The notes beneath the pieces are model-generated. The model saw only the letters and a program-made list of their open reading frames with translations. It searched no databases and had not been told where the DNA came from. The position numbers and the translations under genes are program-made. A DNA stretch of 64,000 bases from Squalus acanthias (Eukaryota). Numbering within the stretch: position 1 is the stretch's first letter; the number at the start of each line of letters is the position of its first letter. Of this stretch, positions 6,098 to 62,756 are shown one piece after another. The stretch spans positions 79,858,001-79,922,000 of the forward strand of contig CM059432.1 of NCBI GenBank assembly GCA_030390025.1, given 5' to 3'.

Positions 6098-8690
6098 GGC
6101 TAATATGATTTTGTAAGTGCCCTGTTACCACTTCCTTAATAATGGATTCCAGCATTTTCCCAACAACTGAAGTCAGGCTAACTGTTCCCCTGTATTTCCT
6201 CGCAACATTATAAGCCTCCTCTTGTAATCTAATACTATCCTTAACTTCTTTAGTTAACCACAGGTGTATCACTTTTTCCGTAGAGCTTCTATTTCTCAAT
6301 GGAATGTATATTCGTTGAGAATTTTGGAATATTTCTTTAAATGTTGCAACTGCTTATCTACCATCATACCTTTTAATCTAATTTCCCAATCTACCTCAGC
6401 TAACTCGCCCCCTATGTAATTGGCTTTATTTAAGTTTAAGACTCTAGTTTCAGACCAATGCAATGTGAAATTCTATCATATTATGATCACTCTTCCCAGA
6501 GGATCCTTTACTATGAGATTACTAATTAAGCCTGTCTCATTACACAATACAAGATCTAAAATAGCCTTTTCCCTGGTTGGTTCGATGACTTATTGTTCTA
6601 GGAAACTGTCTCGAATGCATTCCATGAACTCGTCCTCCAGACTACCTTTGCCAATTTGATTTGTCCAGTCTATATGAAGATTAAAGTCCCCCATGGTTAT
6701 TGTATTACCTTTATTACAAGCTCCTGTTATTTGTTGATTAGTACTCTGTCCAAAGATATAGCTACTGTTTGGGGGCCTATAAACTACTCCCACATTGTTA
6801 TTTCTTATCTCCACCAATAATGATTCTACTTCATCTTCCGAGCCAAGATTTTTCTCACTACTGTTCTTATGTTATCCTTTATTAGGAGGGCTACCTCCCT
6901 CCTTTTCCATTTTGCTTGTCTTTTCTAAACATCAAGTACCCTGGAATATTTAGTTCCAAACCTTGGTCACCTTGCAACCATGTCTCTGTAATGGCTATTA
7001 GATCAAATTGCTGGATTTGTATTTGTATTCCTGGCCCCGAGCTCCACTCCCAAAACAAGCGCTCTACTCGGAGCTCCGACACGGCAAGAGAGCCCCAGCT
7101 GGGCAGAGGAAACGCTACAAGGACACCCTCAAAGCCTCCTTGAAAAAGTGCAACATCCCCACCGACACCTGGGAATCCCTGGCCCAAGACCGCACAAAGT
7201 GGAGGAGAAGCATCCGGGAAGGCGCCGAACACCTCGCGTCTCTTCGCCGGGAGCAAGCGGAGAACAAGCGCAAGCAGCGCAGCCCGCCCACCCCTTCAAC
7301 CACTGTCTGCCCCACCTGTGATAGAGACTGCAGGTCCCGCATTGAACTCATCAGTCACCTGAGAACTCATTTTTAATATGGAAGCAAGTCATCCTTGGTT
7401 CCGAGGGATTGCCTAAGATTAGATCAAAGCTATTTATCTCTATTTGTGCCAATGCTTTGTGCATTCAAATAAAGAGCCTTTAATTTTAACTTTTTACCAT
7501 TATTCCCTGCTTTCACCTTATTCGCTGATGCACTTTTACCGTTAAACTCTCTGTCCCTTCCTGTTACATTGTGCTTATCTTTACCCAATTCGCTACACTG
7601 CTTCTTTGCCTTGACTTTTCACTTTAGATTTCTAAATTTCCCCTCACCTTTTTAGTTTAAAGCCCCATCTACAGCACTAGTTATTTGATTCGCCAAGACA
7701 CTGGTCCCAGCCCGGTTTATGTGGAGCCCGTCCCAACGGAACAGCTCCCTCTTTCCCCAGCACTGGTGCCAGTGCCCCATGAATCGAATCCCCTTCCTCC
7801 CACACCACTCTTTGAGCCATGCATTTTACTCTCTGATCTGCTTGTCCCTATGCCAATTTGTGCGTGCCTCAGGTAACAATCCAGGAGATTATTACCTTTG
7901 AGGTTCTGCGTTTTAATTTGGATCCTAGCTCCTCAAACTCTCTCAGCAGAACCTCACTCCTAATTCTACCTATGTCGTTGGTTCCAACTTGGCCCACGAC
8001 AACTGGATTCTCCCCCTCCCACTCCTAATTCTTTTCCAGCCGCAAGGAGATATCCTTAACCCTGGCACCAGACAGGCAACACAGCCTTTGAAACTCCCAG
8101 TCGCGGCTGCAGAGAACAGTATCTATCCCCCTGACTATACTGTCCCCTACCACATTCCTTTTCGCTCCTCCCACTTGAATGGTCTCCTATCCACGGTGCC
8201 GTGGTCAGTTTGCTCATCGACCCTGCAGACTTTGCCCTCATCCACACAGGCAGCAAGAACCTCATACCTGTTGGATAAGGGCAAAGGGCCAAGGCCAAGG
8301 TTCCTCCAGCACTGCACCTGGGGACCCCTTATCCGAGTTGCAGTCACACCCTCCTGTTCCTGACCACTAACCAGACCTCTACCACTACCTAACCTAAAGG
8401 GTGTGACTGTCTCCTGGATCAAAGTGTCCAGATAACTCTCCCCCTCCCTGATGCCCCACAATGTCTGCACCTCGGACTCTAGCTCAACAATTCTGTGCTG
8501 AAGTTCCTTGAGATGCAGACACTTACTGCAGACGTGGTCGTCTGGGACCGTGATGCTCTGCACAAGCTCCCACATGCTGCAATTGCAGCACACCACCTGC
8601 ACTGCCATCCCTATATAATCTTGTTTTAGTTATTTAATTAATTAAAGTTTATGTATTTCTATAGGTTAGTTTTTAACTAATTACTAAATC
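6098..8690 (-). mobile_element. CR1 LINE with ORF1 and internally deleted ORF2; host of the RTE and Penelope insertions (5'UTR probably resumes at ~10166-10400)
   Basis: ORF1 N-terminus 8147-8608 (CCNCSMWE..C..C..L, PLSNRY) homologous to ORF1 at 58847; endonuclease motifs ITETWL, VVYRPP, GDFN at 6590-7000. Confidence 0.87.
7008..7417 (+). mobile_element. RTE-clade LINE 3' fragment with 11-bp TSD
   Basis: LPKQALYSEL..G.R..GQRKRYKDTLK..L...WESLAQDR..WR and C-terminal CPTC..HLRTH; TSD attagatcaaa at 6997-7007 and 7418-7428. Confidence 0.9.
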
Positions 8691-8782
8691 TAGTTTAAGT
8701 TATGATGTGGAGATGCCGGCGTTGGACTGGGGTGGACAAAAATGAGAAGTCGCACAACACCAGGTTATAGTCCAACAGATTT

Positions 8783-8833
8783 ATTTAATTTTACAAGCTT
8801 TCGGAACAGTTCGCTCCTTCGTCAGGTAAGTTA
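8783..8833 (-). ncRNA. Minimal hammerhead-ribozyme-like motif (left arm, mirror copy)
   Basis: Exact reverse complement of 10060-10110; CTGACGA at 8825-8819, GAAA at 8802-8799. Confidence 0.65.
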
Positions 8834-9411
8834 GCAGTGAGAGAATCTCCCAGAATTCACAATTTAAACACAGACAAAATATATTCAAATCTTTCCTACA
8901 TCAAAGAGCACAGCCAAGACAATGAGATGTGTCCCAGGGGGTCCAACGTGTCAAACCACCTGCTGGCTGCATATCCTGTCAATCTGTGTAGGTTCTTGTG
9001 TTAGTCTTTTTTTAAAAAAAACACCTGGGAAGACCGGCCATGATGTCAAGTCACGTTCTGTATCGTGACATGAACCCGATATCGCGATTGAGGCCATCCT
9101 CATGAGTGCGGAACTTGGCTATCAGTTTCTGCTCTATGATTTTGCGCTGTCGTGTATCTCGAAGGCCGCCTTGGAGAACGCTTACCCGCATATCCGAGGC
9201 TGAATGCCCCTGGCTGCTGAAGTGTTCCCCGACTGGGAGGCAACCCTCCTGCCTGGCGATTGTTGCGTGGTGTCCGTTCATACGTTGTCTCAGTGTCTGC
9301 ATGGTCTCGCCGATGTACCATGCTCTGGAGCATCCTTTACTGCAACGTATCAGGTAGACAACGTTGGCCGAGTCACATGAGTATGTACCGTGTACCTGGT
9401 GGGTAGTGTCC

Positions 9412-9842
9412 CACAACCCTGCCACGGCAACCTCTGCAAGACATGCCAAATCATGGACACAGATACCATCATCACACGTGAGGACACTACCCACCAGGTA
9501 CACGGTACATACTCATGTGACTCGGCCAACGTTGTCTACCTGATACGTTGCAGTAAAGGATGCTCCAGAGCATGGTACATCGGCGAGACCATGCAGACAC
9601 TGAGACAACGTATGAACGGACACCGCGCAACAATCGGCAGGCAGGAGGGTTGCCTCCCAGTCGGGGAACACTTCAGCAGCCAGGGGCATTCAGCCTCGGA
9701 TATGCGGGTAAGCGTTCTCCAAGGCGGCCTTCGAGATACACGACAGCGCAAAATCATAGAGCAGAAACTGATAGCCAAGTTCCGCACTCATGAGGATGGC
9801 CTCAATCGCGATATCGGGTTCATGTCACGATACAGAACGTGA
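9412..9842 (+). pseudogene. Penelope GIY-YIG endonuclease domain, open frame, 5'-truncated (no RT)
   Basis: QPCHGNLCKTC...CDSANVVYLIRCSKGCSRAWYIGETMQTLRQRMNGH...EQKLI.KF.T..DGLN; mirror copy on the minus strand at 9051-9411. Confidence 0.88.
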
Positions 9843-10059
9843 CTTGACATCATGGCCGGTCTTCCCAGGTGTTTTTTTTAAAAAAAGACTAACACAAGAA
9901 CCTACACAGATTGACAGGATATGCAGCCAGCAGGTGGTTTGACACGTTGGACCCCCTGGGACACATCTCATTGTCTTGGCTGTGCTCTTTGATGTAGGAA
10001 AGATTTGAATATATTTTGTCTGTGTTTAAATTGTGAATTCTGGGAGATTCTCTCACTGC

Positions 10060-10110
10060 TAACTTACCTGACGAAGGAGCGAACTGTTCCGAAAGCTTGT
10101 AAAATTAAAT
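10060..10110 (+). ncRNA. Minimal hammerhead-ribozyme-like motif in Penelope 3' region (right arm)
   Basis: CTGACGA (10068-10074), stem II GGAGCG/TGTTCC, GAAA (10091-10094), then palindromic AAGCTT in place of stem III. Confidence 0.65.
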
Positions 10111-10911
10111 AAATCTGTTGGACTATAACCTGGTGTTGTGCGACTTCTCATTTTAGTTTAAGTTACAGGCAGATGAAATTAAATATTTAAGTAACACAAA
10201 GCACTACAAATTTTGGAGGCAAAATACCCCTTTGCTCCAAATTTCCACTCGCTCCAAATTCCCAGCTTTAACACTCTGTTTAGAAGCACTCCGTTTATGA
10301 TCACTCTGTGCAGACCACTGTACTCCTTATTGTTCCAACTTTAAAAGAGGTTAATTTGATGTGGTGACTGACTGCAGCACAGACAAACCCTCGCAATTTT
10401 CTGCTAATTATGACAACTTTCAACTCTCTACTGCACACTTAAAAATGACATTTCACCCAAGAATTCCTTGAAGTAGTCTAGGAAACCTGCTAGATAAGGT
10501 TGCGTATTAACATTACCAACCCAATGCTTCAGTGCAGAGCCAATCTTTGGCAATGTGATGGTGCTTAGATGGAAATCTGCCTTTATACAATATTTAAAAA
10601 AAAAACTTTACATAGAGCCTATATTGGTCACCAACATATTTACTACATGACATATGGTGAATTGTCAGACTGCTAGAAAAACACTTTTATGCACACAAGT
10701 TCAGAGAGAAACATCAGTGCATACCCATTGACCTGCAAACTGACCCAGTTTTCCCTTTGCAGCATTGAGCAGGGGCAAATGCAAAAGGCTGAAAACCAGG
10801 TCTTTCACTGCATTTGTCCATGGCGAAGTGGGACTAGAGCAATTGAGCCATCATCACAAAAATTTGAAGAGAATCAATACAACTTCTTTATCACAGTATT
10901 ATCTCATTTAC

Positions 10912-19771: not shown

Positions 19772-20579
19772 CTGCATGGATAGAAAAAGAACACTCGTTA
19801 AAACAAAAATTCTGGATATGCCAATAAAAAATATATTCAGTCTAGAAAAGAATATAAATTATTTTCCATCTACAGTAATATATCAAATAACTTTTGTATT
19901 GTACCAATGGTCAACTTTTATTTTACAAAGGTTAGGTGCATTTACCACATTATAAAAATGATGGAAAGTACAATAAATAGGATTACAATTATAATCCTTA
20001 ATATATTACTTTCCATTCTGAAATAAATCATGATTTACTCATCAAACAATTTCTATAACAATGCTGATCCATACTCGTCAATCATATGTATATCTGTATG
20101 ATTAAACAAACAAAATATATTTTAAACTCTCCTAAGTACACAAGTTGGCAGAAAGAATGCAATGTGGAGAGAACAAGCAGCAAGTACGGGACAGAGACAC
20201 GCACGGACAGAGAAGGAGCAGATGGTGTGAATTTACAGGTAATTTTCGGGCGTTGTGTACTAAGTAAGGAGCCTCATCGATCAGAAGTAGGTACTGGAGA
20301 TTTAGACACATGTACCACATGGTTTTCTGACCATTTAATGATCAGAAAATTTCTGATACGGACTTCCCACCAGGAGCACAAAGTCGGAAAAAAGAGATTT
20401 TTCCCATTTACACCTCTTCTAGACCCATCTTTTGTTTCTTTACTTGCCCCATTACCATCTACTTTTGCCTGATACAATCATACCTTTTCTCATTTAATCT
20501 CTCCTGCCTTCCACCCCAGCATAGACCTTCACTTTTGTTCTTTCCTCTCCTCCCCTCCCCACTTGGTTAAAACATGCCA

Positions 20580-23703: not shown

Positions 23704-23732
23704 TATCTCTATTTGTGTTATATCTCTTTTTC

Positions 23733-23772
23733 CAGTTCTGACGAAAGGTCATCGACCTGAAACGTTAACTCT
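23733..23772 (+). ncRNA. Minimal hammerhead-ribozyme-like motif (Penelope family 2, intact core)
   Basis: cagtt CTGACGA a AGGTC-atc-GACCT GAAA cgtt aact: core boxes, 5-bp stem II, palindromic AACGTT, stem I agtt/aact. Confidence 0.72.
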
Positions 23773-24319
23773 GTTTCTCTCTCCACAGATGCTGCCTGAC
23801 CTGCTGAGTATTTCCAGCATTTTCTGTTTTTTGTTCAGATTTCCAGCATCCGCAGTATTTTGCTTTTGGAAAATACACCTTTGTTGTCACTCCAGGGTAT
23901 CTACCACTGTTTCAATGATGCACTGCAGCATTCAAGAGATAGTTTTATTCAGGTTTTTGCTGGCAGTGCTCATCATACAGATGCCAATTTTCAGTATACT
24001 CAACATTTCTGCCGTGTGATACTGCAGCATAATTATTGCAAGGTTACCGTCTTCAGATTACTACAAGATATGGTGTATCCACATTTGGCACGCAGTGGCA
24101 GCATAAAGCATTCCTAGGATAGGTAATAACATAAGCAGATTAATATGTAGTTTCCTTTACATTGCCTCAACAATAGGTCTTAACCCAAACCTTAAGAGTA
24201 TGCCCTATGCACCAGTGTGAATCTTCACAGAACTGCCGTTCTTGCAGTCTCTCTTGAATGACTGTCTATTTCTAAACAGTTGTGTGTGGGAACTCATAAC
24301 AAAAGGAACTGAATTGAGG

Positions 24320-27300
24320 TATTCAAAGAAGAATTCAGCTTAATACAGGACCAGCATATATCCCTAAGGAACAAGAGCACTACTTACCAAATAAAACAAC
24401 CATGGTTGATAAAAGAAGCGAGTGATAACATACAACTAAAGGAAAGAGCATACAAAAGGGCCAAGAATAGTGTAGATCCAGGGGACTGGGAGAAATATAA
24501 AGAACAGCAAAAGAAGACAACAAAAATAGCAAGAGCTGCAAAAAGAGAATACAAAAAGAAACTTGCGAGAGAGATCAAGATTAACACAAAAGTTTTTACA
24601 ATTATATTAGAAGAAAATGGGTAGTCCAGAGTAATGTGGGCCCTTTACAACAAATGGGGGTAATATTGCAAATGAAAATAAGGAAATGGCAGACTTGTTG
24701 AATAATTACTTTGAGTCAGTCTTCATAGTAGAGGAAGAGGATAATATACCTGACAGTCCAGGGAAACTAATACTGAATCAAGAACTGGAACTCACTAAAG
24801 TTGATAAAAGCAAGAATTTTTTTTCATAGAAAAAATTGCACTAAAAACTGAAAAATTACACAGGACCTGATGGTTTCCACCCCAGGGTTTTAAAGGAAGT
24901 AGGTGAGGAAATTGCAGATGGTTTAGCCATAATCTTCCAAAGCACACTCAATTCAGGAACTGTCTCTTTAGTTTGGAATATTGCAAATGTAGCTCCATTA
25001 TTTAAGAAAGGTGAGAGAGAGAAACCAGGAAATTATAGACCTGTTAGTCCAACATCTGTTGTGGGGAAGTTATTGGAATCTATAATTAAGGATAGAGTGA
25101 CTGAGCACTTGAGAAATTTCAGCTGATTAGAGAGAGCCAACATGGATTTGCAAAGGATAGGTCGTGTCAAACGAACCTAAAAGCACATGGGATTGGGGGG
25201 AAAGGTACCGACTTGGATCGAGAACTGGTTGGCAGACAGGAAGTAAAAAGTTGGAATAAATGGGTCTTTTTCCAAGTGGCAGGCAGTGACTAGTGGGGTA
25301 CCGCAGGGATCGGTGCTAGGACCCCAGCTATTCACAATATATATAAATGATCTAGACGAGGGAACTAGATGTAATATCTCCAAGTTTGCAGACGACACAA
25401 AGCTGGGTGGGCGTGTGTGCTGTGAGGAGGATGCAGAGAAACTCCAGTATGATTTGGACAGGTTGGGTGATTGGGCAGATGCATGGCAGATGCAGTATAA
25501 TGTGATAAATGCGAGGTTATCCACTTTGGTGGCAAAAACAGGAAGACAGATTATTATCTGAACGGCAATAGATTGGGAAAAGAGGAAGTGCAACGAGACC
25601 TGGGTGTCCTTATGCATCAGTCGCTGAAGGTAATCATGCAGGTGCAGCAGGCGGCTAAGGCGGCAAATGGTATGTTGGCCTTCATAGCGAGAGGATTCAA
25701 GTACAGGAGCAAGGATGTCTTGCTGCAGTTGTACAGGGTCTTGGTGCGACCACACCTCGAGTACTGTGTGCAGTTTTGGTCGCCTTATCTGAGGATGTTC
25801 TTGCCATGGAAGGAGTGCAGCAAAGATTCACCAGACTGATACCTGGGATGGCAGGAATGAATTATGAAGAGAGATTGGGTCGATTAGGCTTTTATTTGCT
25901 AGAGTTTAGAAGAATGAGAGGGGATCTCATTGAAACTTATAAAATTCTAACAGGACTAGACAGACTAGATGCAGAAAGGATGTTCCCGATGGCAGGGGAG
26001 TCCAGAACCAGGGGTCACAGTCTAAGGATAAAGGGTAAGCCATTTAAGACTGAGATGAGGAGGAATTTCTTCACCCAGAGAGTGGTGAACCTGTGGAATT
26101 CTCTACCACAGAAGGCAGTTGAGGCCAATTCATTAAATATATTCAAGAAGGAGTTAGATATATTTCTTAAGGCTAAGGGGATCAAGGGGTATGGGGAGAA
26201 AGCAGGGACAGGGTACTGAATTTGGACAATCAGCCATGACCTCATTAAATGGCGGAACAGGCTCGAGGGGCCGAATGGCCTAATCCTGCTCCTATCTTCT
26301 ATGTTTCTATGTTAATTACATTTTTTGAGGAAGTAACTAAAGTAATAGACAAGGGAATGCATATGGTTATATTTATAATGACTTCCAGAAGGCATTCGAT
26401 ACGGTTCCACATAAAAGACTGTTAGCTAAAATTAAAGCTCATGGAATTTTAAGGCAAATTATTGACCTGGTTAGGAGATTGGTTAGGTGGTAGAAGACAG
26501 AGAGTAGGGGTAATGGGTATGTACTCGAATTGGAAGGAAGTGATTAGTGGTGTCCCTCAAGGGTCTGTGCTGGGGCCTTAACTATTCACTATATTCATTA
26601 ATGATAACACAATAGAGAGCCATATATCCACAGTTTGGAGTTATAGTAAGTAGTGTAAGATGGGAGCATAAAATTACAAAGAGACATGGATAGATTAAAT
26701 GATTGGGCAAAACTGTGGCAGATGGATTTCAACACAGGCAAGTATGAAGTCATCAATTTTGGACCAAAAAAGGATAGATCCAAGTATTTTTTAAATGGTG
26801 AAACGCTCGGAACAGTGGAGGTTCAAAGAGATTTAGGGGTCCCTGTACACAGATCACTAAAATGTATGTCAGGTATAAAAAATAATCAAAAAGGCTAATG
26901 GAATGTTAGCAATAATAACTAGAGGGCTAGAATATAAAGGGGAGGACGTTTTGCTACAGCTATACAAAGTCCTGGTTAGACCACATCTGGAGTACTGTGT
27001 ACAGTTCTGAGCACCGCACCTTAGAAAGGATATATTGGCCTTGGCAGGAATACAGCGCAGACTCAGCAGAATGTTACCAGGGCTCCAAGGGTTAGATTAT
27101 GAAGAGAGATTATATAAACTAGGTTTCTATTCCCTGGAATATTGAAGGTTAAGGGGTGATTTAATTGAGATAGGATTTTGAACGGATTAAGATAGGGTGG
27201 AGAGAAACTTTTTCCACTGGTGGGGAAGTCCAAGACAAGGGAACATAACTTTAAAATCAGAGCCAGGCCATTCTGGAAAGAACTTAGGAAACACTTCTTG

Positions 27301-29284: not shown

Positions 29285-30448
29285 TTTGGTCCGTCACATC
29301 AGTTCTGACAATGCCACTTTCCATACTCGTGCTTCCGATAGGTCTTCCTTTTTCCTCAACTGAGGATTCCCCTCTACCATGGTTGACATAGCCCTCGAAT
29401 GTGTTCATTCCATTTCCCGCACTTCTGCTCTCACTCCTTCCCCTCCCTCCCAGAACCACAATAGAGTTCCCCTTGTCCTCACCTTTCACCCCATCAGCCT
29501 CCACATTCAACGGATCATCCTCCGCCATTTACGCCACCTCCAGCATGATCCCACCACCAAACACATCTTCGCCTCACCTTTCAGCATTCCGAAGGAACCA
29601 TTCCCTCTGCGACACCCTGGTCCACTCCTCAATCACCCCCAACACCCCCTCCCCTTCCCACGGCACCTTCCCGTGCAAGCTCAGGAGATGCAACAACTGC
29701 CCTTTTACCTTCTCCCTTCCCACCGTCCAGGGCCCAAAACACTCCTTCCAGGTGAAACAGCGATTTTCTTGTACTTCTTGCAACTTAGTATACTATATTC
29801 GCTGCTCACGATGTGGTCTTCTCTACATTGGAGAGACCAAACGCAGATTGGGTGACCGCTTTGCAGAACACCTCCGTTCAGTCCGCAAGCGTGACCCCAA
29901 GCTTCCAGTCGCCTGTCACTTTAATTCTCTGCTCCACGCCCACTCTGACCTCGGCCTCTTACACTGTTCCAATGAAGCTCAACGTAAGCTCAAGGAACAG
30001 CACTTCATCTTTCGATTAGGTACTTTACAGCCTTCTGGACTCAACATCGAGTTCAACAATTTAGACCATAACCTCTGCCCCTATTTTTTCAGATGGCAGC
30101 TGTTGATGATTCTGCCATTCCCATTTACACCTCTTCTAGACCCATCTTTTGTTTCTTTACTTGTCCCATTACCATCTCCTTTTGCTTTGTACAATCATAC
30201 CTTTTGTCATTTAATCTCTCCTACCTTCCATCCCATCACAGATCTTCCCTTTTGTTCTTTCATCCCCTCCTCCCTTTCCCTGCCCCTGCACTTGTTTAAA
30301 ATCGGTTACATCTCTAACATTTTCCAGTTCTGACAAACGGTCATCGACCTGAAACGTTAACTCTATTTCTCTCTCCACAGATGCTGAGTATTCCCAGCAT
30401 TTTCTGTTTTTAGTTCAGATTTCCAGTATCCGCAGAATTTTGCTTTAG
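29285..30448 (+). mobile_element. Penelope-like element (family 2): RT-linker remnant, GIY-YIG domain, 3' region
   Basis: GTFPCKLRRCNNC..FSCTSCNLVYYIRCSRCGLLYIGETKRRLGDRFAEH...EQHFIFRLGTLQPSGLN; mutated hammerhead-like motif at ~30329-30360. Confidence 0.9.
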
Positions 30449-31202: not shown

Positions 31203-32289
31203 AGCCCGGATTTTGCGGTCAGTGTTGAAGGGACGGCACTCGCCGCTGACCTCGAAAAAAGCTACCAAGAATGATTTATCAGGCTCTAGACAGTAGATTT
31301 CCTAATTTACGACGTCACTTTGAATTTGGCGCCATCTATAGGGGATCTGTGGCAACAGGGCAAGCAGCAGGCAGGCTGATCAGCCAATCGGATTGAAGAA
31401 GTCTCAGACATCAAGCAGAAAGTAAAAAGCAGGGAATATAATTCACATTTAAATCATTGTACAGAAAGCGAAATAAGATTGGGACATACACGAGATTAAG
31501 GGAGAGGCTTCAATATCATAAAACAATCTTTAAAAAAATAAAATGAAAATTAATTCTTATTTTAAAATCTGCAATTTTTAAATGTTCTTCTGAGGGAATG
31601 ACACTCCACACTTCTAAAATTAGTTCTTCAAGGCCAGAGAGGTTGTTCAGCAGTATTACAGTATGCCGTTAAAAACTCAGTTACTCCTGATTGAACAAGG
31701 CTCAACACTTTCATATTGGGCCTTTTGCTATACCCATTTACACCTCGTCTAGGCCTATCTTTTGTTTCTTTACTTGTCCCATTACCATCGCTTTTGCTTT
31801 GTACAATCATGTCTTTTAATCTCTCCTAACTTCCACCCCATCACAGACCTTCCTTTTTATTCTTTCCTCCCCTCACCTTTCCCTGCCCCTGCACTTGCTT
31901 AAAATCTGTTACATCGCTAACTTTTTCCAGTTCCGACGAAAGGTCATCGACCTGAAACGTTAACTGTTTCTCTCTCCACAGATGCTGCCTGACCTGCTGA
32001 GTATTTCCAGCATTTTCTGGTTTTATTTCAATGTTTTCATTGTTCTTTTACAGCAAAAATAGCACATAAATAGTTGAAGCTCATGTAAAATCAGTGATTC
32101 TGTGTTGATTCCATCTGTAAAGACTGCAACAGTGCACCCTGTGGAGGAGCAGGGTATCTCTGACAGCAACTTCTGGATTTCCGCGTTTAACTGCTCATGT
32201 GTGGACGCCAGAAATTGCTGTCAGTTTTACACAGTAATGATGGCAAGCGCTGACAGTTTCACCACCATTACAACCGCAAATTCCGGCCC
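31203..32289. mobile_element. Harbinger-like MITE containing a Penelope family-2 3' fragment (~31731-32030)
   Basis: TIRs agcccggattttgcggt / accgcaaattccggccc; the nested part matches 30118-30420. Confidence 0.7.
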
Positions 32290-50815: not shown

Positions 50816-50854
50816 CTATATACAAACATAGGAACAGGAGTAGGCCATTTACTG

Positions 50855-51083
50855 AAATAAAAACAGAAAATACTAGAAATACTCAGCAGGTCAGGTAGCA
50901 TCTGTAGAGAGAGATAAACAGATTTAGCCTTTCAGGTCGATGACCTTTCGGTTCGGACGATAGGTCATCGACCTAAAACGTTAACTCTGTTTCTCTCTCC
51001 ACAGACGCTGCCTGACCTGTTGAGTATTTCCAGCATTTTCTGTTTTTATTTCAGATTTCCAGCAGCTGCGGTATTTTGCTTTT
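50855..51083. mobile_element. Miniature fold-back Penelope (family 2) with 15-bp TSD
   Basis: Inverted arms ~50852-50950 and ~50957-51054, tail on the right only; TSD gtaggccatttactg at 50840-50854 and 51084-51098. Confidence 0.85.
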
Positions 51084-51561
51084 GTAGGCCATTTACTGGT
51101 TGTGAGCCAGCTAATCAGCCAAGGTGGCAGTATGAACACTACAAAAACATTCCCAGATTAGAAAGGGGAAAACAAAACAAAATTTAAGTACTGAAAATAG
51201 GTTTCAAAAGCTTTATTTGAAGTATATTAACCTCATGCATGCAACCTCTGCTCCATCCAACTGATTTTCTCCCACACCACACCCATCCTATATCTGAGGG
51301 AGGACAACTATCTCTCATGCCAATAATAATGTCCACAGATGGCAGCTAAGAGGCACAATAGAATAGCCTGGTGGAAATTATCTTTTTGATTCAGTCTCTT
51401 CCTGTGCGGCAACACCGCTCTATGGTTTCTAGCTGCAGTTCAACCTGTGTCCCAACACTCCATGATACTCTGTGTTGCTGCTCTAATGTAGTGCAGCACC
51501 TAGGATTCATCAGTTTTATACTACTCAGATTGCGCAATTTGGATTAAATCAGGAAATAAAT

Positions 51562-52296
51562 GGCCCGGAATTTGCGTTCGGGATGACGGCGATTATTCCG
51601 CCTTTGAAACTGACCGCAACTTCGGGATTTGGCCCATGCGGAAATCCTGAAGTTGGCAGTCTGTCAATGACAGCTGTACCCCTCTTCCTCCAGAGCTGGC
51701 AATTTGTGTAATCTGCCAAATCAGGGAAACTGACGAAAACTTTGGCTCTTCTGCTGTAAGCACTGTTAAATTCCCCAGTAAAAGTTAGACCCAAAGGGAT
51801 TTGGTGTAACTGCGGTTTTGACAGTGTTATTACTGCTAAACAAATGTTAAGGGCCTGGAAAACTAATTTTAATTTTGTGCAGTGTGAAATTTGTCCATTT
51901 TAATAAAAATTTAAATTTTTAAGCAACTTTTCAAAAAATGTTTTAATTTTTTTTTTAAGTTTGTCCATCTCTATTGTCGGTTTGCCTTTTCCCCATGTGA
52001 AAGCCCCAATCTTTGTTTTGCTCTTTCTAACATTTTTAAAAAGTTAGAATTTTAAGAGTTTACTCACTTCCTTGGTCGCGGTCTGTGAGAATTCTACGTT
52101 TTGATTGGCTGCTTAGACAGCCTGCTGACATCACAGCAGTTCGCATAAGGGGATCCCCACCATAATTCGTTGATTTGAATTGATTGTCAGAAAACCCGAA
52201 GTTCTGAACACACTGATCGCGAGATCCTTGTGCGAAGCGTACTTCAGGGCCAGCAGCGAACGCCTTCACTTCGCTGCTGACCACGAATTCCGGGCC
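51562..52296. mobile_element. Harbinger-like MITE (GGCCC family) with exact 3-bp TSD
   Basis: aat|ggcccggaatt ... aattccgggcc|aat. Confidence 0.82.
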
Positions 52297-56296: not shown

Positions 56297-57354
56297 ACTG
56301 CAACGAATTTGCGGTCAGCGGCGAAGCAAAGACATTCTCCGCTGGCCCTGAAGAAAGCGATCTCTATAGCGAGATGTTCGGCTTTTCCGCCGTTCAATTG
56401 AGATCAGTGCAGTTTAGTGGGAAGTCCATAACGCGAGCTGGTGTGATGTCAACAAGCTGTCTAAGCAGCCAATCACAATGCAGAATTCTCAGACAGGAAA
56501 CCAGGAAGTGAAGGAGTTCCTTTTATTCTAACCTTTTAAAAATGTTAAAGAGCAAAACAAAGATTGGGGCTCTCACATGGGGAAAAAAGTAAACCTGAAA
56601 TAAAGATGAACAAATTAAAAAAAATTAAAAGTAGTTTTTCAGAGACATAACGTTTGTTTAGCAGTCAATACGCTGTTAAAACCCTAGTTGCACCTAATCC
56701 AACAAGGTCTAACATTTTTAATGGAGTATTTAACAGTGATAGTACAGGAAACTCTTTATTAACCGGCACCCAAATATCCGGAAATCTCTCTTAACCGGCA
56801 AAATTCTTGAGTAGGTAACCGGGGTTTTCCTTCATCTCTCGTTTAAGCTTAACTTTAAAAAAAAAAACCCAGGCGTTTGCCTTGTATCGGAGCGTGTAGA
56901 TTGGGAGGGGAATGTGCAGCCCGGGTAGGCAGCGGACACGACAGATGGTCAGCTGGCAGTCCCCGGGGAGACGGAGCTCCGAATGCAGGCGCATGTCAAT
57001 GTGTACGGGGCTCTCGTACGTTGGTAGATATAACTCTCCGTTATCCGGACTTTTTGATAAACCGGCACCACGCCGGTCCCAGTCGGTGCCGGTTAATAAA
57101 GAGTTTCCTGTACCATGGAAAAGCCGAAGTTTTCATCAGTTTGACTGATTCCCCTGATTACACTGATTGCCGGCTATGGGGGTGGGGGTCCCACAGCGCA
57201 GCCAGTGTCGGAGCAGTGAATGACTGACCGCAACTTCGGGATTTCTGCGTTAGGATGCGCATGCGATAAATCCTGAAGTTGTGGTCAGTTTCAAAGGTGA
57301 AATGATAGCGAACGCTGTTAGTTCGCTGTTATTATCCACTGCAAATTACGGGCC
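56297..57354. mobile_element. Harbinger-like MITE (GGCCC family), inverted relative to 51562-52296; host of 56745-57110
   Basis: gaatttgcggtcagc ... gcaaattacgggcc; internal segments are reverse complements of the 51562 copy. Confidence 0.7.
56745..57110. mobile_element. Tc1/mariner-superfamily (pogo/Tigger-like) MITE
   Basis: Perfect 26-bp TIR caggaaactctttattaaccggcacc; TA duplication at 56743-56744 and 57111-57112. Confidence 0.88.
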
Positions 57355-59981: not shown

Positions 59982-62756
59982 TTGTGTCTTAATGCGAGGA
60001 GCATTCGTAATAAGGTGGATGAATTAGCTGCGCAAATAGATGTAAACGGATGTGATATAATTGGGATTACGGAGACATGGCTCCAGGGTGACCAAGGCTG
60101 GGAATTCAACATCCAGGGGTATTCAATATTCAGGAAGGACAGACAAAAAGGAAAAGGAGGTGGGGTAGCATTGCTGGTTAAAGAGGAGATTAACACAATA
60201 GTAAGGAAGGATATTAGCTCTGATGATGTGGAATCTGTATGGGTAGAGCTGAGAAATACCAAGGGGCAGAAAACGTTAGTGGGAGTTGTATATAGACCCC
60301 CAAACAGTAATGCTGAGGTTGGGGATGGCATTAAACAGGAAATTAGAGACGCGTGCAATAAGGGCACTGCAGTTATCATGGGTGACTTTAATCTACATAT
60401 AGATTGGGCTAACCAAATTAGTAACAATACTGTGGAGGAGGAATTCCTAGAGTGTATACGGGATGGTTTCCTGGACCAATATGTCGAGGAACCAACTAGA
60501 GATCAGGCCATCTTAGACTGGGTATTATGTAATGAGAAAGGATTAATTAGCAATCTTGTTGTGCGAGGCCCCTTGGGGAGGAGCGATCATAATATGATAG
60601 AATTCTTCATTACGATGGAGAGTGAAGTAGTTGACTCAGAGATTAGAGTCCTGAATTTAAATAAAAGGAAACTACGATGGTATGAGGCGTGAGTTGGCTA
60701 GGGTGAATTGGGGAGCGTTACTTAAAGGGTTGACGGTGGATAGGCAATGGCAAACATTTAAAGATCGCATGGATGAACTACAGAATTTGTTCATCCCTGT
60801 TTGGCATAAAAAAAACCAAAAAAGGTGACTCAACCATGGCTAACAAGGGAAATTAGGGATAGCATAAGATCCAAGGAGAGGACATATCAATTGGCCAGAA
60901 AAAGCAGCAAACCTGAGGATTGGGAGCAGTTTAGGATTCAGCAAAGGAGGACAAAGGGATTAATTAAGAGGGGGAAAATAGAATATGAGAGCAAGCTTGC
61001 AGGGAACATAAAAACTGACTGTAAAAGCTTCTATAGATATGTGAAGAGAAAAAGATTGGTGAAGTCAAGCGTAGGTCCCTTGCAGTCAGAATCAGGGGAA
61101 TTTATAATGGGGAACAAAGAAATGGCAGACCAATTAAATACATACTTTGGTTCTGTCTTCACAAAGGAGGACACAAAAAACCTCCCAGAGATGTCGGGGA
61201 ACAGAGGGTCTAATGAGAGGGAGGAACTGAATGAAATCAGTATTTGTAGGGAAATGGTGTTAGGGAAATTGATGGGATTGAAGGCCGATAAATCCCCAGG
61301 GCCTGATAATCTACATCCTAGGGTACTTAAGGAAGTGGCCCTAGAAATAGTAGATGCATTGCTGGTAATCTTTCAAAATTCTATAGACTCTGGAACAGTT
61401 CCCATGGATTGGAGGGTAGCTAATGTAACCCCACTATTTAAAAAAGGAGGTAGAGAAAAAAGCCTGACATTGGTAGTGGGCAAAATGCTACAGTCCATTA
61501 TAAAAGATGTAATAGCGGAGCACTTGGAAAACAGTGACAGGATCGGACAAAGTCAACATGGATTTACAAAAGGGAAATCATGCCTGACTAATCTACTGGA
61601 ATTTTTTGAGGATGCAACTGGTAGAATAGATAAGGGAGAAACAGTGGATGTGGTGTATTTGGACTTTCAGAAGGCTTTCGATAAGGTCCCGCATAAGAGA
61701 TTAGCGGGCAAAGTTAAAGCACATGGGACTGGGGGTGAGGTATTGATTTGGATAGAGAACTGGTTGGCAGACAGGAAGCAAAGAGTTGGAATAAACGGGT
61801 CTTTTTCCGAGTGGCAGGCAGTGACTACTTGCGTACCACAGGGATCAGCGCTAGGACCCCAGCTATTCACAATATATATTAATGATCTAGACGCGGGAAC
61901 TAGATGTAATATCTCTAAGTTTGCAGACGACATAAAGCTGGGTGGGCGTGTGTGCTGTGAAGAGGATGCAGAGAAAATCCAGTATGATTTGGACAGTTTG
62001 GGTGATTGGGCTGATGCATGGCAGATGCAGTATAATGTGGATAAATGCGAGGTTATCCACTTTGGTGGCAAAAGCAGGAAGACAGATTATCTGAACGGCA
62101 ATAGATTGGGAAAAGGGGAAGTGCAACGAGATCTGGGAGTCCTTGTGCACCAGTCGCTGAAGGTAAGCATGCAGGTGCAGCAGGCGGTTAAGAAGGCAAA
62201 TGGTATGTTGGCCTTCATAGCGAGAGGATTCGAGTACAGGAGCAAGGATGTCTTGCTGCAGTTGTACAAGGCCTTCGTGAGACCACACCTTGAGTATTGT
62301 GTGCAGTTTTGGTCACCTTATCTGAGGAAGGATGTTCTTGCCATGGAGGGAGTGCAGCGAAGATTTACTAGACTGATACCTGGGATGGCAGGAATGACGT
62401 ATGAAGAGAGATTGGGTCGATTAGGCTTATATTCGTTAGAGTTTCGAAGAATGAGAGGGGATCTCATTGAAACTTATAAAATTCTAACAGGACTAGACAG
62501 ACTAGATGCAGGAAGGATGTTCCCAATGGCGGGCGAGTCCAGAACCAGAGGTCACAGTCTAAGGATAAGGGGTAAGCCATTTAGGACTGAGATGAGGAGG
62601 AATTTCTTCACCCAGAGAGTGGTGAACCTGTGGAATTCTCTACCACAGAAGGCAGTTGAGGCCAATTCATTAAATATATTCAAGAAGGAGTTAGATATAT
62701 TTCTTAAGGCTAAAGGGATTAAGGGATATGGGGAGAAAGCAGGGACAGGGTACTGA
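59982..62756 (+). pseudogene. CR1 ORF2 (APE endonuclease plus RT), disrupted
   Basis: CLNARS, ITETWL, GDFN, SDH; frameshifts between 60660 and 60825; the NYRPV motif is missing near 61460; DFQKAFD, YINDL, KFADD. Confidence 0.92.

What the first reader, a model, noticed from the sequence alone, without database searches (positions are those of the whole stretch)
8691..10165. 1.45-kb fold-back Penelope insertion: 673-bp near-perfect palindrome, intact TSD, one-sided tail
Seen: arms 8739-9411 and 9482-10154 mirror each other (coordinate sum 18893) with only two mismatches visible (GHHATIA vs GHRATIG). The 70-bp centre is extra 5' coding sequence of the + copy. A 12-bp TSD (tagtttaagtta) brackets everything, so this was one insertion event. 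A 36-nt extension (8703-8738) exists only on the minus copy. Known: Penelope-like elements occur in tandem or inverted pLTR arrangements with short 3' tails. Inference: the tail-less arm is the longer one, which simple fold-back of the tail-primed cDNA would not produce. Twin priming on a partially tandem RNA would explain it. Palindromes this long and perfect are unstable and rare, suggesting a very young insertion from a possibly active family.
Basis: partly seen in the sequence, partly recalled or inferred. Interest (0 to 1): 0.72.

Follow-up and report, generated by a model that had tools for sequence, protein, structure and literature searches.

The report
Head-to-head Penelope insertion, one-sided tail
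A Penelope-type jumping gene sits here as two back-to-back partial copies inside one duplicated target site, a layout already described for its class, and it likely arose because both cut ends of the chromosome started copying the element's RNA.

Summary
It is a 5'-truncated, head-to-head insertion of a Neptune/Nematis-type Penelope-like element (PLE), probably in a cartilaginous fish (89% identity to a shark RT+endonuclease protein).

The layout is the published norm for PLEs (PMC8557442, PMC3846280). It is not rare here:
- five other inversion joints of the family appear in public contigs;
- a second, 88%-identical inverted PLE pair with TSD and one-sided tail lies at 50840-51098;
- this scan already holds 296 notes matching these words, in at least 27 genomes.

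Tail-less ends cluster at one site family-wide, matching the second RT start site shown in vitro (PMC11167929). Most likely both nicked strands primed cDNA, one at each start site, and the two cDNAs were joined. The copy is young in sequence terms, possibly about 10^6 generations at a shark mutation rate. Polymorphism and activity are untested.

The parts
8691..8702 (.). Left copy of the 12-bp target-site duplication; weakly dyad-symmetric (8 of 12 bases, 12 of 12 purine/pyrimidine)
   Evidence: 7.1% of AT-matched window 12-mers are as symmetric; 0.9% with the post-hoc purine/pyrimidine criterion
8703..8738 (-). 36-nt PLE tail, minus copy only; the stretch between the two inferred RT start sites
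   Evidence: family contigs continue past 10154 with these letters; 30-40 bp tail in PMC8557442
8716..8763 (-). Predicted RNA stem-loop; the tail-less end falls in its terminal loop and the tail end 13 nt 3' of the stem (weak support)
   Evidence: -13.4 kcal/mol, z -1.61, 15 of 200 shuffles fold as well
8739..9411 (-). Left arm: 5'-truncated minus copy (end of the GIY-YIG frame plus 3' UTR/pLTR); private CpG transition at 9268
   Evidence: (family letter C in 99.6% of X1 depth)
8791..8829 (-). Minimal hammerhead ribozyme motif, minus copy (mirror of 10064-10102)
   Evidence: motif scan and fold; no Rfam hit
9412..9481 (+). 70-nt unpaired centre: extra 5' coding sequence of the plus copy, encoding the CX4CxxC linker. 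The inversion joint 9411|9412 has no exact microhomology
   Evidence: (loose ends on either side of the joint)
9412..9842 (+). Uninterrupted C-terminal fragment of the PLE ORF: CX4CxxC linker, GIY-YIG endonuclease with CCHH motif, stop at 9840-9842
   Evidence: Pfam GIY-YIG E 6.3e-05, 23.6 bits vs cut-off 22.6; 124 of 140 identical to P0001
9482..10154 (+). Right arm: 5'-truncated plus copy, tail-less, ending at the family's shared end site; private C>G change at 9637
   Evidence: P0001 has Ala at this codon like the left arm
10064..10102 (+). Minimal hammerhead motif: stem I 10064-67/10099-102, core from 10068, stem II 10076-90, palindromic helix-III remnant; would need a dimer
   Evidence: architecture as in PMC4209133; cleavage not tested
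10154..10165 (.). Right copy of the 12-bp TSD (first base shared with the arm)
7900..8690 (-). Left flank: an older multicopy repeat, probably a LINE 5' region; the repeated sequence appears to continue right of the TSD (10166-10219), so the PLE landed inside it
   Evidence: depth well above single copy on both sides; a CR1-like ORF1 is my recalled resemblance only, Pfam gave no passing hit

Best explanation
This is a single insertion of two 5'-truncated copies of a Neptune/Nematis-type Penelope-like retrotransposon joined head to head inside one 12-bp target duplication, likely made by two-ended target-primed reverse transcription. Inferred steps: the element's GIY-YIG/RT protein, probably a dimer, nicks both strands 12 nt apart; each free 3' end primes antisense cDNA on element RNA from one source. 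The top strand starts at the outer start site (tail included) and the bottom strand at the inner site 36 nt upstream (no tail). They stop after 709 and 743 nt, are joined 3' end to 3' end by a template jump or end joining without exact microhomology, and each strand is then filled in on the other. The templates would be one RNA unit read twice or two RNAs; no two-unit tandem RNA is needed. Afterwards each arm acquired one change. Shown: the anatomy, the fixed family end site, the shared source. Inferred: nicking, priming order, joining.
For: Both outer ends are element 3' ends facing out from one TSD. Tail-less ends cluster at 10150-10157 with many different flanks: X1 71 contigs at 10150 and 103 at 10154; X5 60, 12, 72 and 23 at 10150, 10153, 10154 and 10157; agreement 0.39-0.46. 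A purified PLE protein nicks and extends both strands, starts at two sites that bound the tail, and is predicted to be a dimer (PMC11167929, parts 1-2 of 4 read). Both arms share letters that are minority in the family, at 8806 (other letter 93% of X1 depth), 9013 (78%) and 9191 (96%), so they have one source. The second inverted PLE (50840-51098) also has one tailed and one tail-less end, with the loop on the other arm, which two-ended priming allows. Other inversion joints fall at different places. The target is weakly symmetric.
Against: The in vitro data are for a Poseidon-clade element, not a Neptune-type one, and that paper did not show joined two-ended products in the parts read. One locus cannot tell one RNA from two. 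The 10154 loose-end group mixes tail continuations with real junctions, only 24 of 183 loose-end rows were shown, and only 43 nt of the element were laid there. The arms stop within 70 nt (here) and 7 nt (second element) of each other, which fold-back explains more simply than independent truncation. Target symmetry is weak (7% by chance) and absent on the called TSD of the second element (0 of 15; 8 of 15 after a 1-nt shift).
Confidence: 0.6

Rival explanations
1. One reading: twin priming on one partially tandem RNA, one primer at the tail of the downstream unit and the other at the pLTR end of the upstream unit.
For: It gives this geometry and a common source for both arms. PLE transcripts with several units are proposed (PMC11167929). 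Head-to-tail joints exist in the family (9357>8708; 10154>10117 and 10153>10122).
Against: It needs two units each carrying more than 700 nt of the 3' region, and no such master could be sought (no genome held). The tail-less end is explained by a known start site. The second element has the loop on the tailed arm.
Confidence: 0.14
2. Self-priming or fold-back (the model in print, PMC3846280): one cDNA or an antisense template folds back and copies itself, and the tail comes from endonuclease resolution or a switch to a second template.
For: It explains near-equal arm lengths and shared variants. The second element has a 7-nt loop on the tailed arm, which fits fold-back. Both parent strands have a 5-of-6 near-match around the joint (read).
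Against: Here the loop is antisense on the tail-less strand, so a fold-back copy would run into target DNA and could not produce the tail. There is no exact microhomology at 9411|9412, and the joined form lacks the middle base of the near-match.
Confidence: 0.12
3. A pre-existing head-to-head source copy was transcribed through and re-inserted whole, starting at the inner site.
For: Some family inversion joints have contig depth of about 108-109 against single-copy depth of about 24-25, which could mean re-copied joints.
Against: The copy would have to end exactly at the tail end with no source flank carried over. Contig depth is not copy number. The depth of this copy's own joint was not displayed.
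Confidence: 0.08
4. Two separate insertions at the same site, or older arms homogenised by gene conversion.
For: The family is extremely abundant (summed depth above 10^6 in X1). Conversion between inverted arms is established knowledge (recalled).
Against: There is a single TSD with no target remnant at the centre. Both arms carry private changes. 61 CpGs survive in the arms (CpG o/e 0.77-0.80 vs 0.38 for the window).
Confidence: 0.03
5. Assembly or chimeric-read artefact.
For: No bridging contig was among the rows shown.
Against: A fold-back chimera would mirror the flank and give neither a TSD nor a one-sided tail. Each arm has its own mutation. The flanks are different sequences, with matching repeat depth on both sides in 3 of 4 runs (X5 1862/1954, X6 33.4/32.6, X17 3.9/3.5; X1 5116/2923). 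Similar joints occur in short-read contigs.
Confidence: 0.03

Closest known systems
Canonical endonuclease-bearing PLE insertion unit with inverted 5'-truncated copy and tail (Craig et al. 2021, PMC8557442, passages read; Adineta vaga Pen2/Pen2a, PMC3846280, passages and Discussion read)
   Same: Head-to-head inverted copies, a single TSD, a 30-40 bp tail at one end only, frequent 5' truncation.
   Different: Both arms are truncated inside the endonuclease domain, with no RT and no direct pLTR partner. The TSD is 12 bp against 8-10 bp in the rotifer examples. There is no native palindrome at the joint.
Neptune/Nematis clades of PLEs
   Same: C-terminal GIY-YIG with CCHH motif, an upstream CX2-5CxxC linker (here CX4CxxC), and a minimal hammerhead in the terminal repeat.
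   Different: The RT is absent from the window, so Neptune vs Nematis was not placed on a tree. The target is not a microsatellite.
PAc (Poseidon of Anolis carolinensis; Frangieh et al. 2024, PMC11167929, parts 1-2 of 4 read)
   Same: Two fixed end sites bounding the tail, an AT-rich target, a hammerhead upstream, and a stem-loop predicted at the start sites (weak here).
   Different: A different clade (no linker zinc finger). In PAc the tail lies inside the ORF start; I found no ATG-led frame across the tail here, and the region downstream of the tail is not in the window.
L1 twin priming (recalled; only a search listing seen)
   Same: Both target 3' ends prime cDNA and give an inversion inside one TSD.
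   Different: L1 inverts the sequence upstream of the first cDNA without duplicating it; here the same 673 nt are present twice.
Shark PLE proteins P0001/P0002 (named by the source as Heptranchias perlo)
   Same: 89-90% identity over the endonuclease region; P0001 also carries RVT_1.
   Different: Protein records only; their genomic layout could not be fetched.

Membership tests
Endonuclease-bearing Penelope-like elements | C-terminal GIY-YIG endonuclease | tested here: met
   Pfam PF01541 above cut-off on the plus copy; stop follows at 9840-9842
Endonuclease-bearing Penelope-like elements | CCHH motif with two Cys between GIY and YIG | tested here: met
   translation; definition
Endonuclease-bearing Penelope-like elements | Telomerase-related RT in the same ORF | tested here: inconclusive
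   No RT in the window (tblastn); the 89%-identical P0001 has RVT_1 upstream; no tree built
Endonuclease-bearing Penelope-like elements | 30-40 bp optional tail at one end | tested here: met
   36 nt, minus copy only; family contigs with and without it
Endonuclease-bearing Penelope-like elements | Inverted 5'-truncated copy adjacent at the 5' end, with TSD | tested here: met
Endonuclease-bearing Penelope-like elements | Minimal hammerhead in the terminal repeat | tested here: met
   Motif and stems found, matching PMC4209133; Rfam gave 0 hits; activity untested
Endonuclease-bearing Penelope-like elements | Full-length copy in partial tandem forming direct pLTRs | not testable with these tools
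   No genome held; only short head-to-tail joints seen
Neptune/Nematis clades | CX2-5CxxC linker upstream of GIY-YIG | tested here: met
   CX4CxxC encoded in 9412-9481 (definition)
Neptune/Nematis clades | RT phylogeny | not tested
Penelope/Poseidon clade | Absence of the CX2-5CxxC linker | tested here: not met
   The linker is present
L1-type twin-priming inversion | Inverted part is non-duplicated upstream sequence | tested here: not met
   673 nt are duplicated; definition recalled
TIR DNA transposon / MITE | Inverted repeats at both termini flush with the TSD; DDE transposase | tested here: not met
   The left arm is 36 nt inside the TSD and the coding part is GIY-YIG

The most novel reading that the evidence does not exclude
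One dimer reads one RNA unit twice. The subunit on the bottom strand starts at the inner site and leads; the subunit on the top strand starts 36 nt behind at the tail, displaces the leading cDNA, then jumps onto its 3' end. That would make the one-sided tail obligatory, keep arm lengths correlated and let the element finish both strands itself: a retrotransposition route with no separate second-strand priming, unlike L1 or R2. This copy has the predicted polarity (tail-less arm longer). The second element in the window has the opposite polarity by 7 nt, so the polarity cannot be strict across families.
Probability: 0.25. Interest if true: 0.6.

Novelty: new member of a known kind. Interest (0 to 1): 0.27.

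Why it matters
How PLEs make their inverted, one-side-tailed insertions is still open. Craig et al. call the features of the cycle undefined, and the self-priming model of 2013 predates the 2024 biochemistry. This copy is a clean case that simple fold-back cannot explain and two-ended priming can. The value lies in the family, which has very many copies and would allow a decisive genome-wide count; one locus adds little. The layout is published, and this scan has logged it many times.

Tried and rejected
- No whole genome is held, so no copy table or master search was possible.
- Rfam: 0 hits at E<=1. A free fold of 10040-10154 is no better than shuffles (z 0.30).
- Metagenome scans: 0 pattern hits and 1 distant locus of 89 candidates (31% identity), not used.
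- Filled/empty state at the orthologous site is undecided. X1 and X5 (organism A) hold the unique right flank at depth about 25 and X6 holds 151 nt without a difference, but no listed piece bridges the junction (32 of 11146 pieces shown). In the left flank, the longest X1 pieces shown differ at 11-16 letters.
- The X6 contig that looks like an empty site matches 10 of 12 left-flank letters and lies in repeated DNA, so it is not counted as the empty allele.
- Depth ratios of tail to body were too noisy to use.
- Pfam did not name the flanking repeat (0 of 4 fragments; one sub-threshold DUF hit).
- Target symmetry is weak or absent. No TSD was found around two other family-2 ends.
- Paper searches for a published two-ended model of PLE inversions listed none beyond the papers cited. 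The library lacks most subscription papers, including the Evgen'ev and Arkhipova reviews of 2005 and 2006, which I did not see. No supplements or figures were read, and Fig. 2 of PMC8557442 may show which end carries the tail.

Full report
OBSERVATION. A base-by-base mirror walk confirms arms 8739-9411 and 9482-10154 (673 bp, sum 18893) with two mismatches, a 70-nt centre 9412-9481, a 12-bp direct repeat at 8691-8702 and 10154-10165, and 36 nt (8703-8738) found only on the minus copy. The TSD is beyond chance (1 of 5000 shuffles and 2 of 5000 random window pairs reach 12 bp). The feature is a spaced inverted repeat, not a perfect palindrome.

IDENTITY. The plus copy encodes an uninterrupted GIY-YIG endonuclease C-terminus (Pfam E 6.3e-05). 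It is 124 of 140 identical to a 643-aa protein that its source names as from the shark Heptranchias perlo and that also has an RT domain. Shark proteins fill the top eight of 36 hits, so the host is probably a cartilaginous fish (inference). The CCHH motif and a CX4CxxC linker are present; per PMC8557442 the linker marks Neptune/Nematis and excludes Penelope/Poseidon. Each arm carries a minimal hammerhead motif (10064-10102 and mirror) of the type described in PMC4209133; Rfam does not detect it. Both copies are 5'-truncated, their 3' ends face outwards, and they meet at 9411|9412. Contigs of all four laid runs show the normal element sequence on either side of that joint, and the joint has no exact microhomology to either parent strand.

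FAMILY CONTEXT. The family is very abundant: summed contig depth is about 10^6 in X1, against about 25 in the unique flank; this is not a copy number. One search showed 15 of 32 joint rows and 12 of 17 rows with letters between. Among them are five distinct antisense-to-sense joints at other positions (X1 9205>9440 and 8799>upstream of 9412; X5 9316>9421, 8787>9450, 9190>9426) and one opposite-strand joint of unclear polarity. Only 70 nt of sense sequence were laid, so no frequency can be given. In one search, loose ends pile up at 10150-10157 with long, mutually unlike continuations (X1 71 and 103 contigs; X5 60, 12, 72, 23; 24 of 183 rows shown; the 10154 group includes tail continuations). 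The tail-less end is therefore a fixed family site. Both arms share letters that are minority in the family at 8806, 9013 and 9191, so they come from one source. Position 9268 is private to the left arm (a CpG transition) and 9637 to the right.

A SECOND CASE IN THE WINDOW. A different, older PLE family has a head-to-head pair at 50855-51083 inside a 15-bp TSD (50840-50854, 51084-51098). Its arms match at 83 of 94 columns, it has a 29-nt tail on the plus arm only, and the 7-nt loop is on the tailed arm. So the one-sided tail recurs (2 of 2), 'tail-less arm longer' does not (1 of 2), and such repeats can persist.

WHAT IS KNOWN. [quoted passage not shown] PMC3846280 (passages and Discussion) describes inverted pLTRs with 8-10 bp TSDs, calls head-to-head the most frequent arrangement and proposes self-priming. 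PMC11167929 (parts 1-2 of 4) shows a PLE protein nicking and extending both strands, starting at two sites that bound the tail, and predicts a dimer. The scan's own index holds 296 findings matching these words in at least 27 genomes, several in this genome. These are unchecked AI notes that agree with the reading I had entered; they are not independent support.

MECHANISM. Read from each TSD 3' end inwards, both strands are antisense cDNA starting at a family end site: the top strand at the tail end, the bottom strand at the inner site. The loop is antisense on the bottom, tail-less strand. The most economical account is two-ended priming from a staggered double nick, followed by joining of the two cDNA ends and mutual fill-in (0.6). 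Fold-back with a template switch or resolution step (0.12) is favoured by the near-equal arm lengths. Re-copying of an existing inverted source (0.08) is kept alive by some joints at about four times single-copy depth. Weak supporting hints: the TSD is 8 of 12 self-complementary (7% by chance; not seen on the called TSD of the second element), and the inner site lies in the loop of a predicted hairpin (z -1.6).

AGE. The arms differ by 0.3% and keep 61 CpGs (o/e about 0.8 vs 0.38 for the window), so the copy is young in sequence terms. At 7e-10 per base per generation (epaulette shark, PMC10587355, passages), two changes in 1346 bp give 1.2-2.1 million generations (range 0.14-7.7 million). The figure is lower if one change is an RT error, and the rate is borrowed from another species. 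Instability does not force a younger age: in yeast, widening an Alu spacer from 12 to 100 bp cuts recombination 300-fold (PMC10164571, passages). The orthologous flank is present in organism A and partly in organism B, but no displayed contig shows whether the site is filled or empty. Activity is untested.

VERDICT. A real, clean example of the standard inverted PLE insertion: a new member of a known kind. It is modestly useful as a case against fold-back and for two-ended priming. Interest 0.27.

Noticed in passing
window 50840-51098: Second head-to-head PLE insertion of an older family: 15-bp TSD, arms of about 95 bp (88% alike) starting at the hammerhead core, 29-nt tail on the plus arm only, 7-nt loop on the tailed arm; 3 nt shared between TSD and tail-less end.
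   Followed up: yes
window 29300-30446, 31723-32030, 23717-23868, 20401-20553: Further copies of that older PLE family; 29569-30069 encodes a degraded GIY-YIG region 32% identical to P0001. The 31723-32030 copy appears to end tail-less.
   Followed up: partly
joints 8799>upstream of 9412 (X1, depth 107.6) and 9316>9421 (X5, depth 109): Family inversion joints at about four times single-copy depth; they may be re-copied or duplicated junctions, or a contig artefact. Two joints (8787, 8799) lie within the hammerhead region.
   Followed up: no
joints 10154>10117 and 10153>10122: Element 3' ends joined back into the AT-rich part of the element's own terminal repeat, in both X1 and X5: head-to-tail self-insertions.
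   Followed up: no
window 10435-10587: X1 and X5 both hold a second version differing at 14 of 153 bases and skipping 10588-10631: a deeply diverged allele or a paralogue. Both runs also differ from the window at 10537.
   Followed up: no
window 56739-57116: 32-bp inverted termini (97% alike) about 380 bp apart, nested in a repeat that also occurs at 51589-52290; looks like a small TIR element.
   Followed up: no
window 60810-62756 and 25180-26313: 648-codon open frame, with a 93%-identical partial copy; probably a younger LINE ORF2 (not scanned).
   Followed up: no
one search hits P0010, P0012, P0017, P0023, P0031: Annotated shark host proteins (a cytochrome P450, septin 5a, XRCC5 and others) carry 71-88%-identical pieces of this endonuclease region: exonised element or gene-model artefacts.
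   Followed up: no
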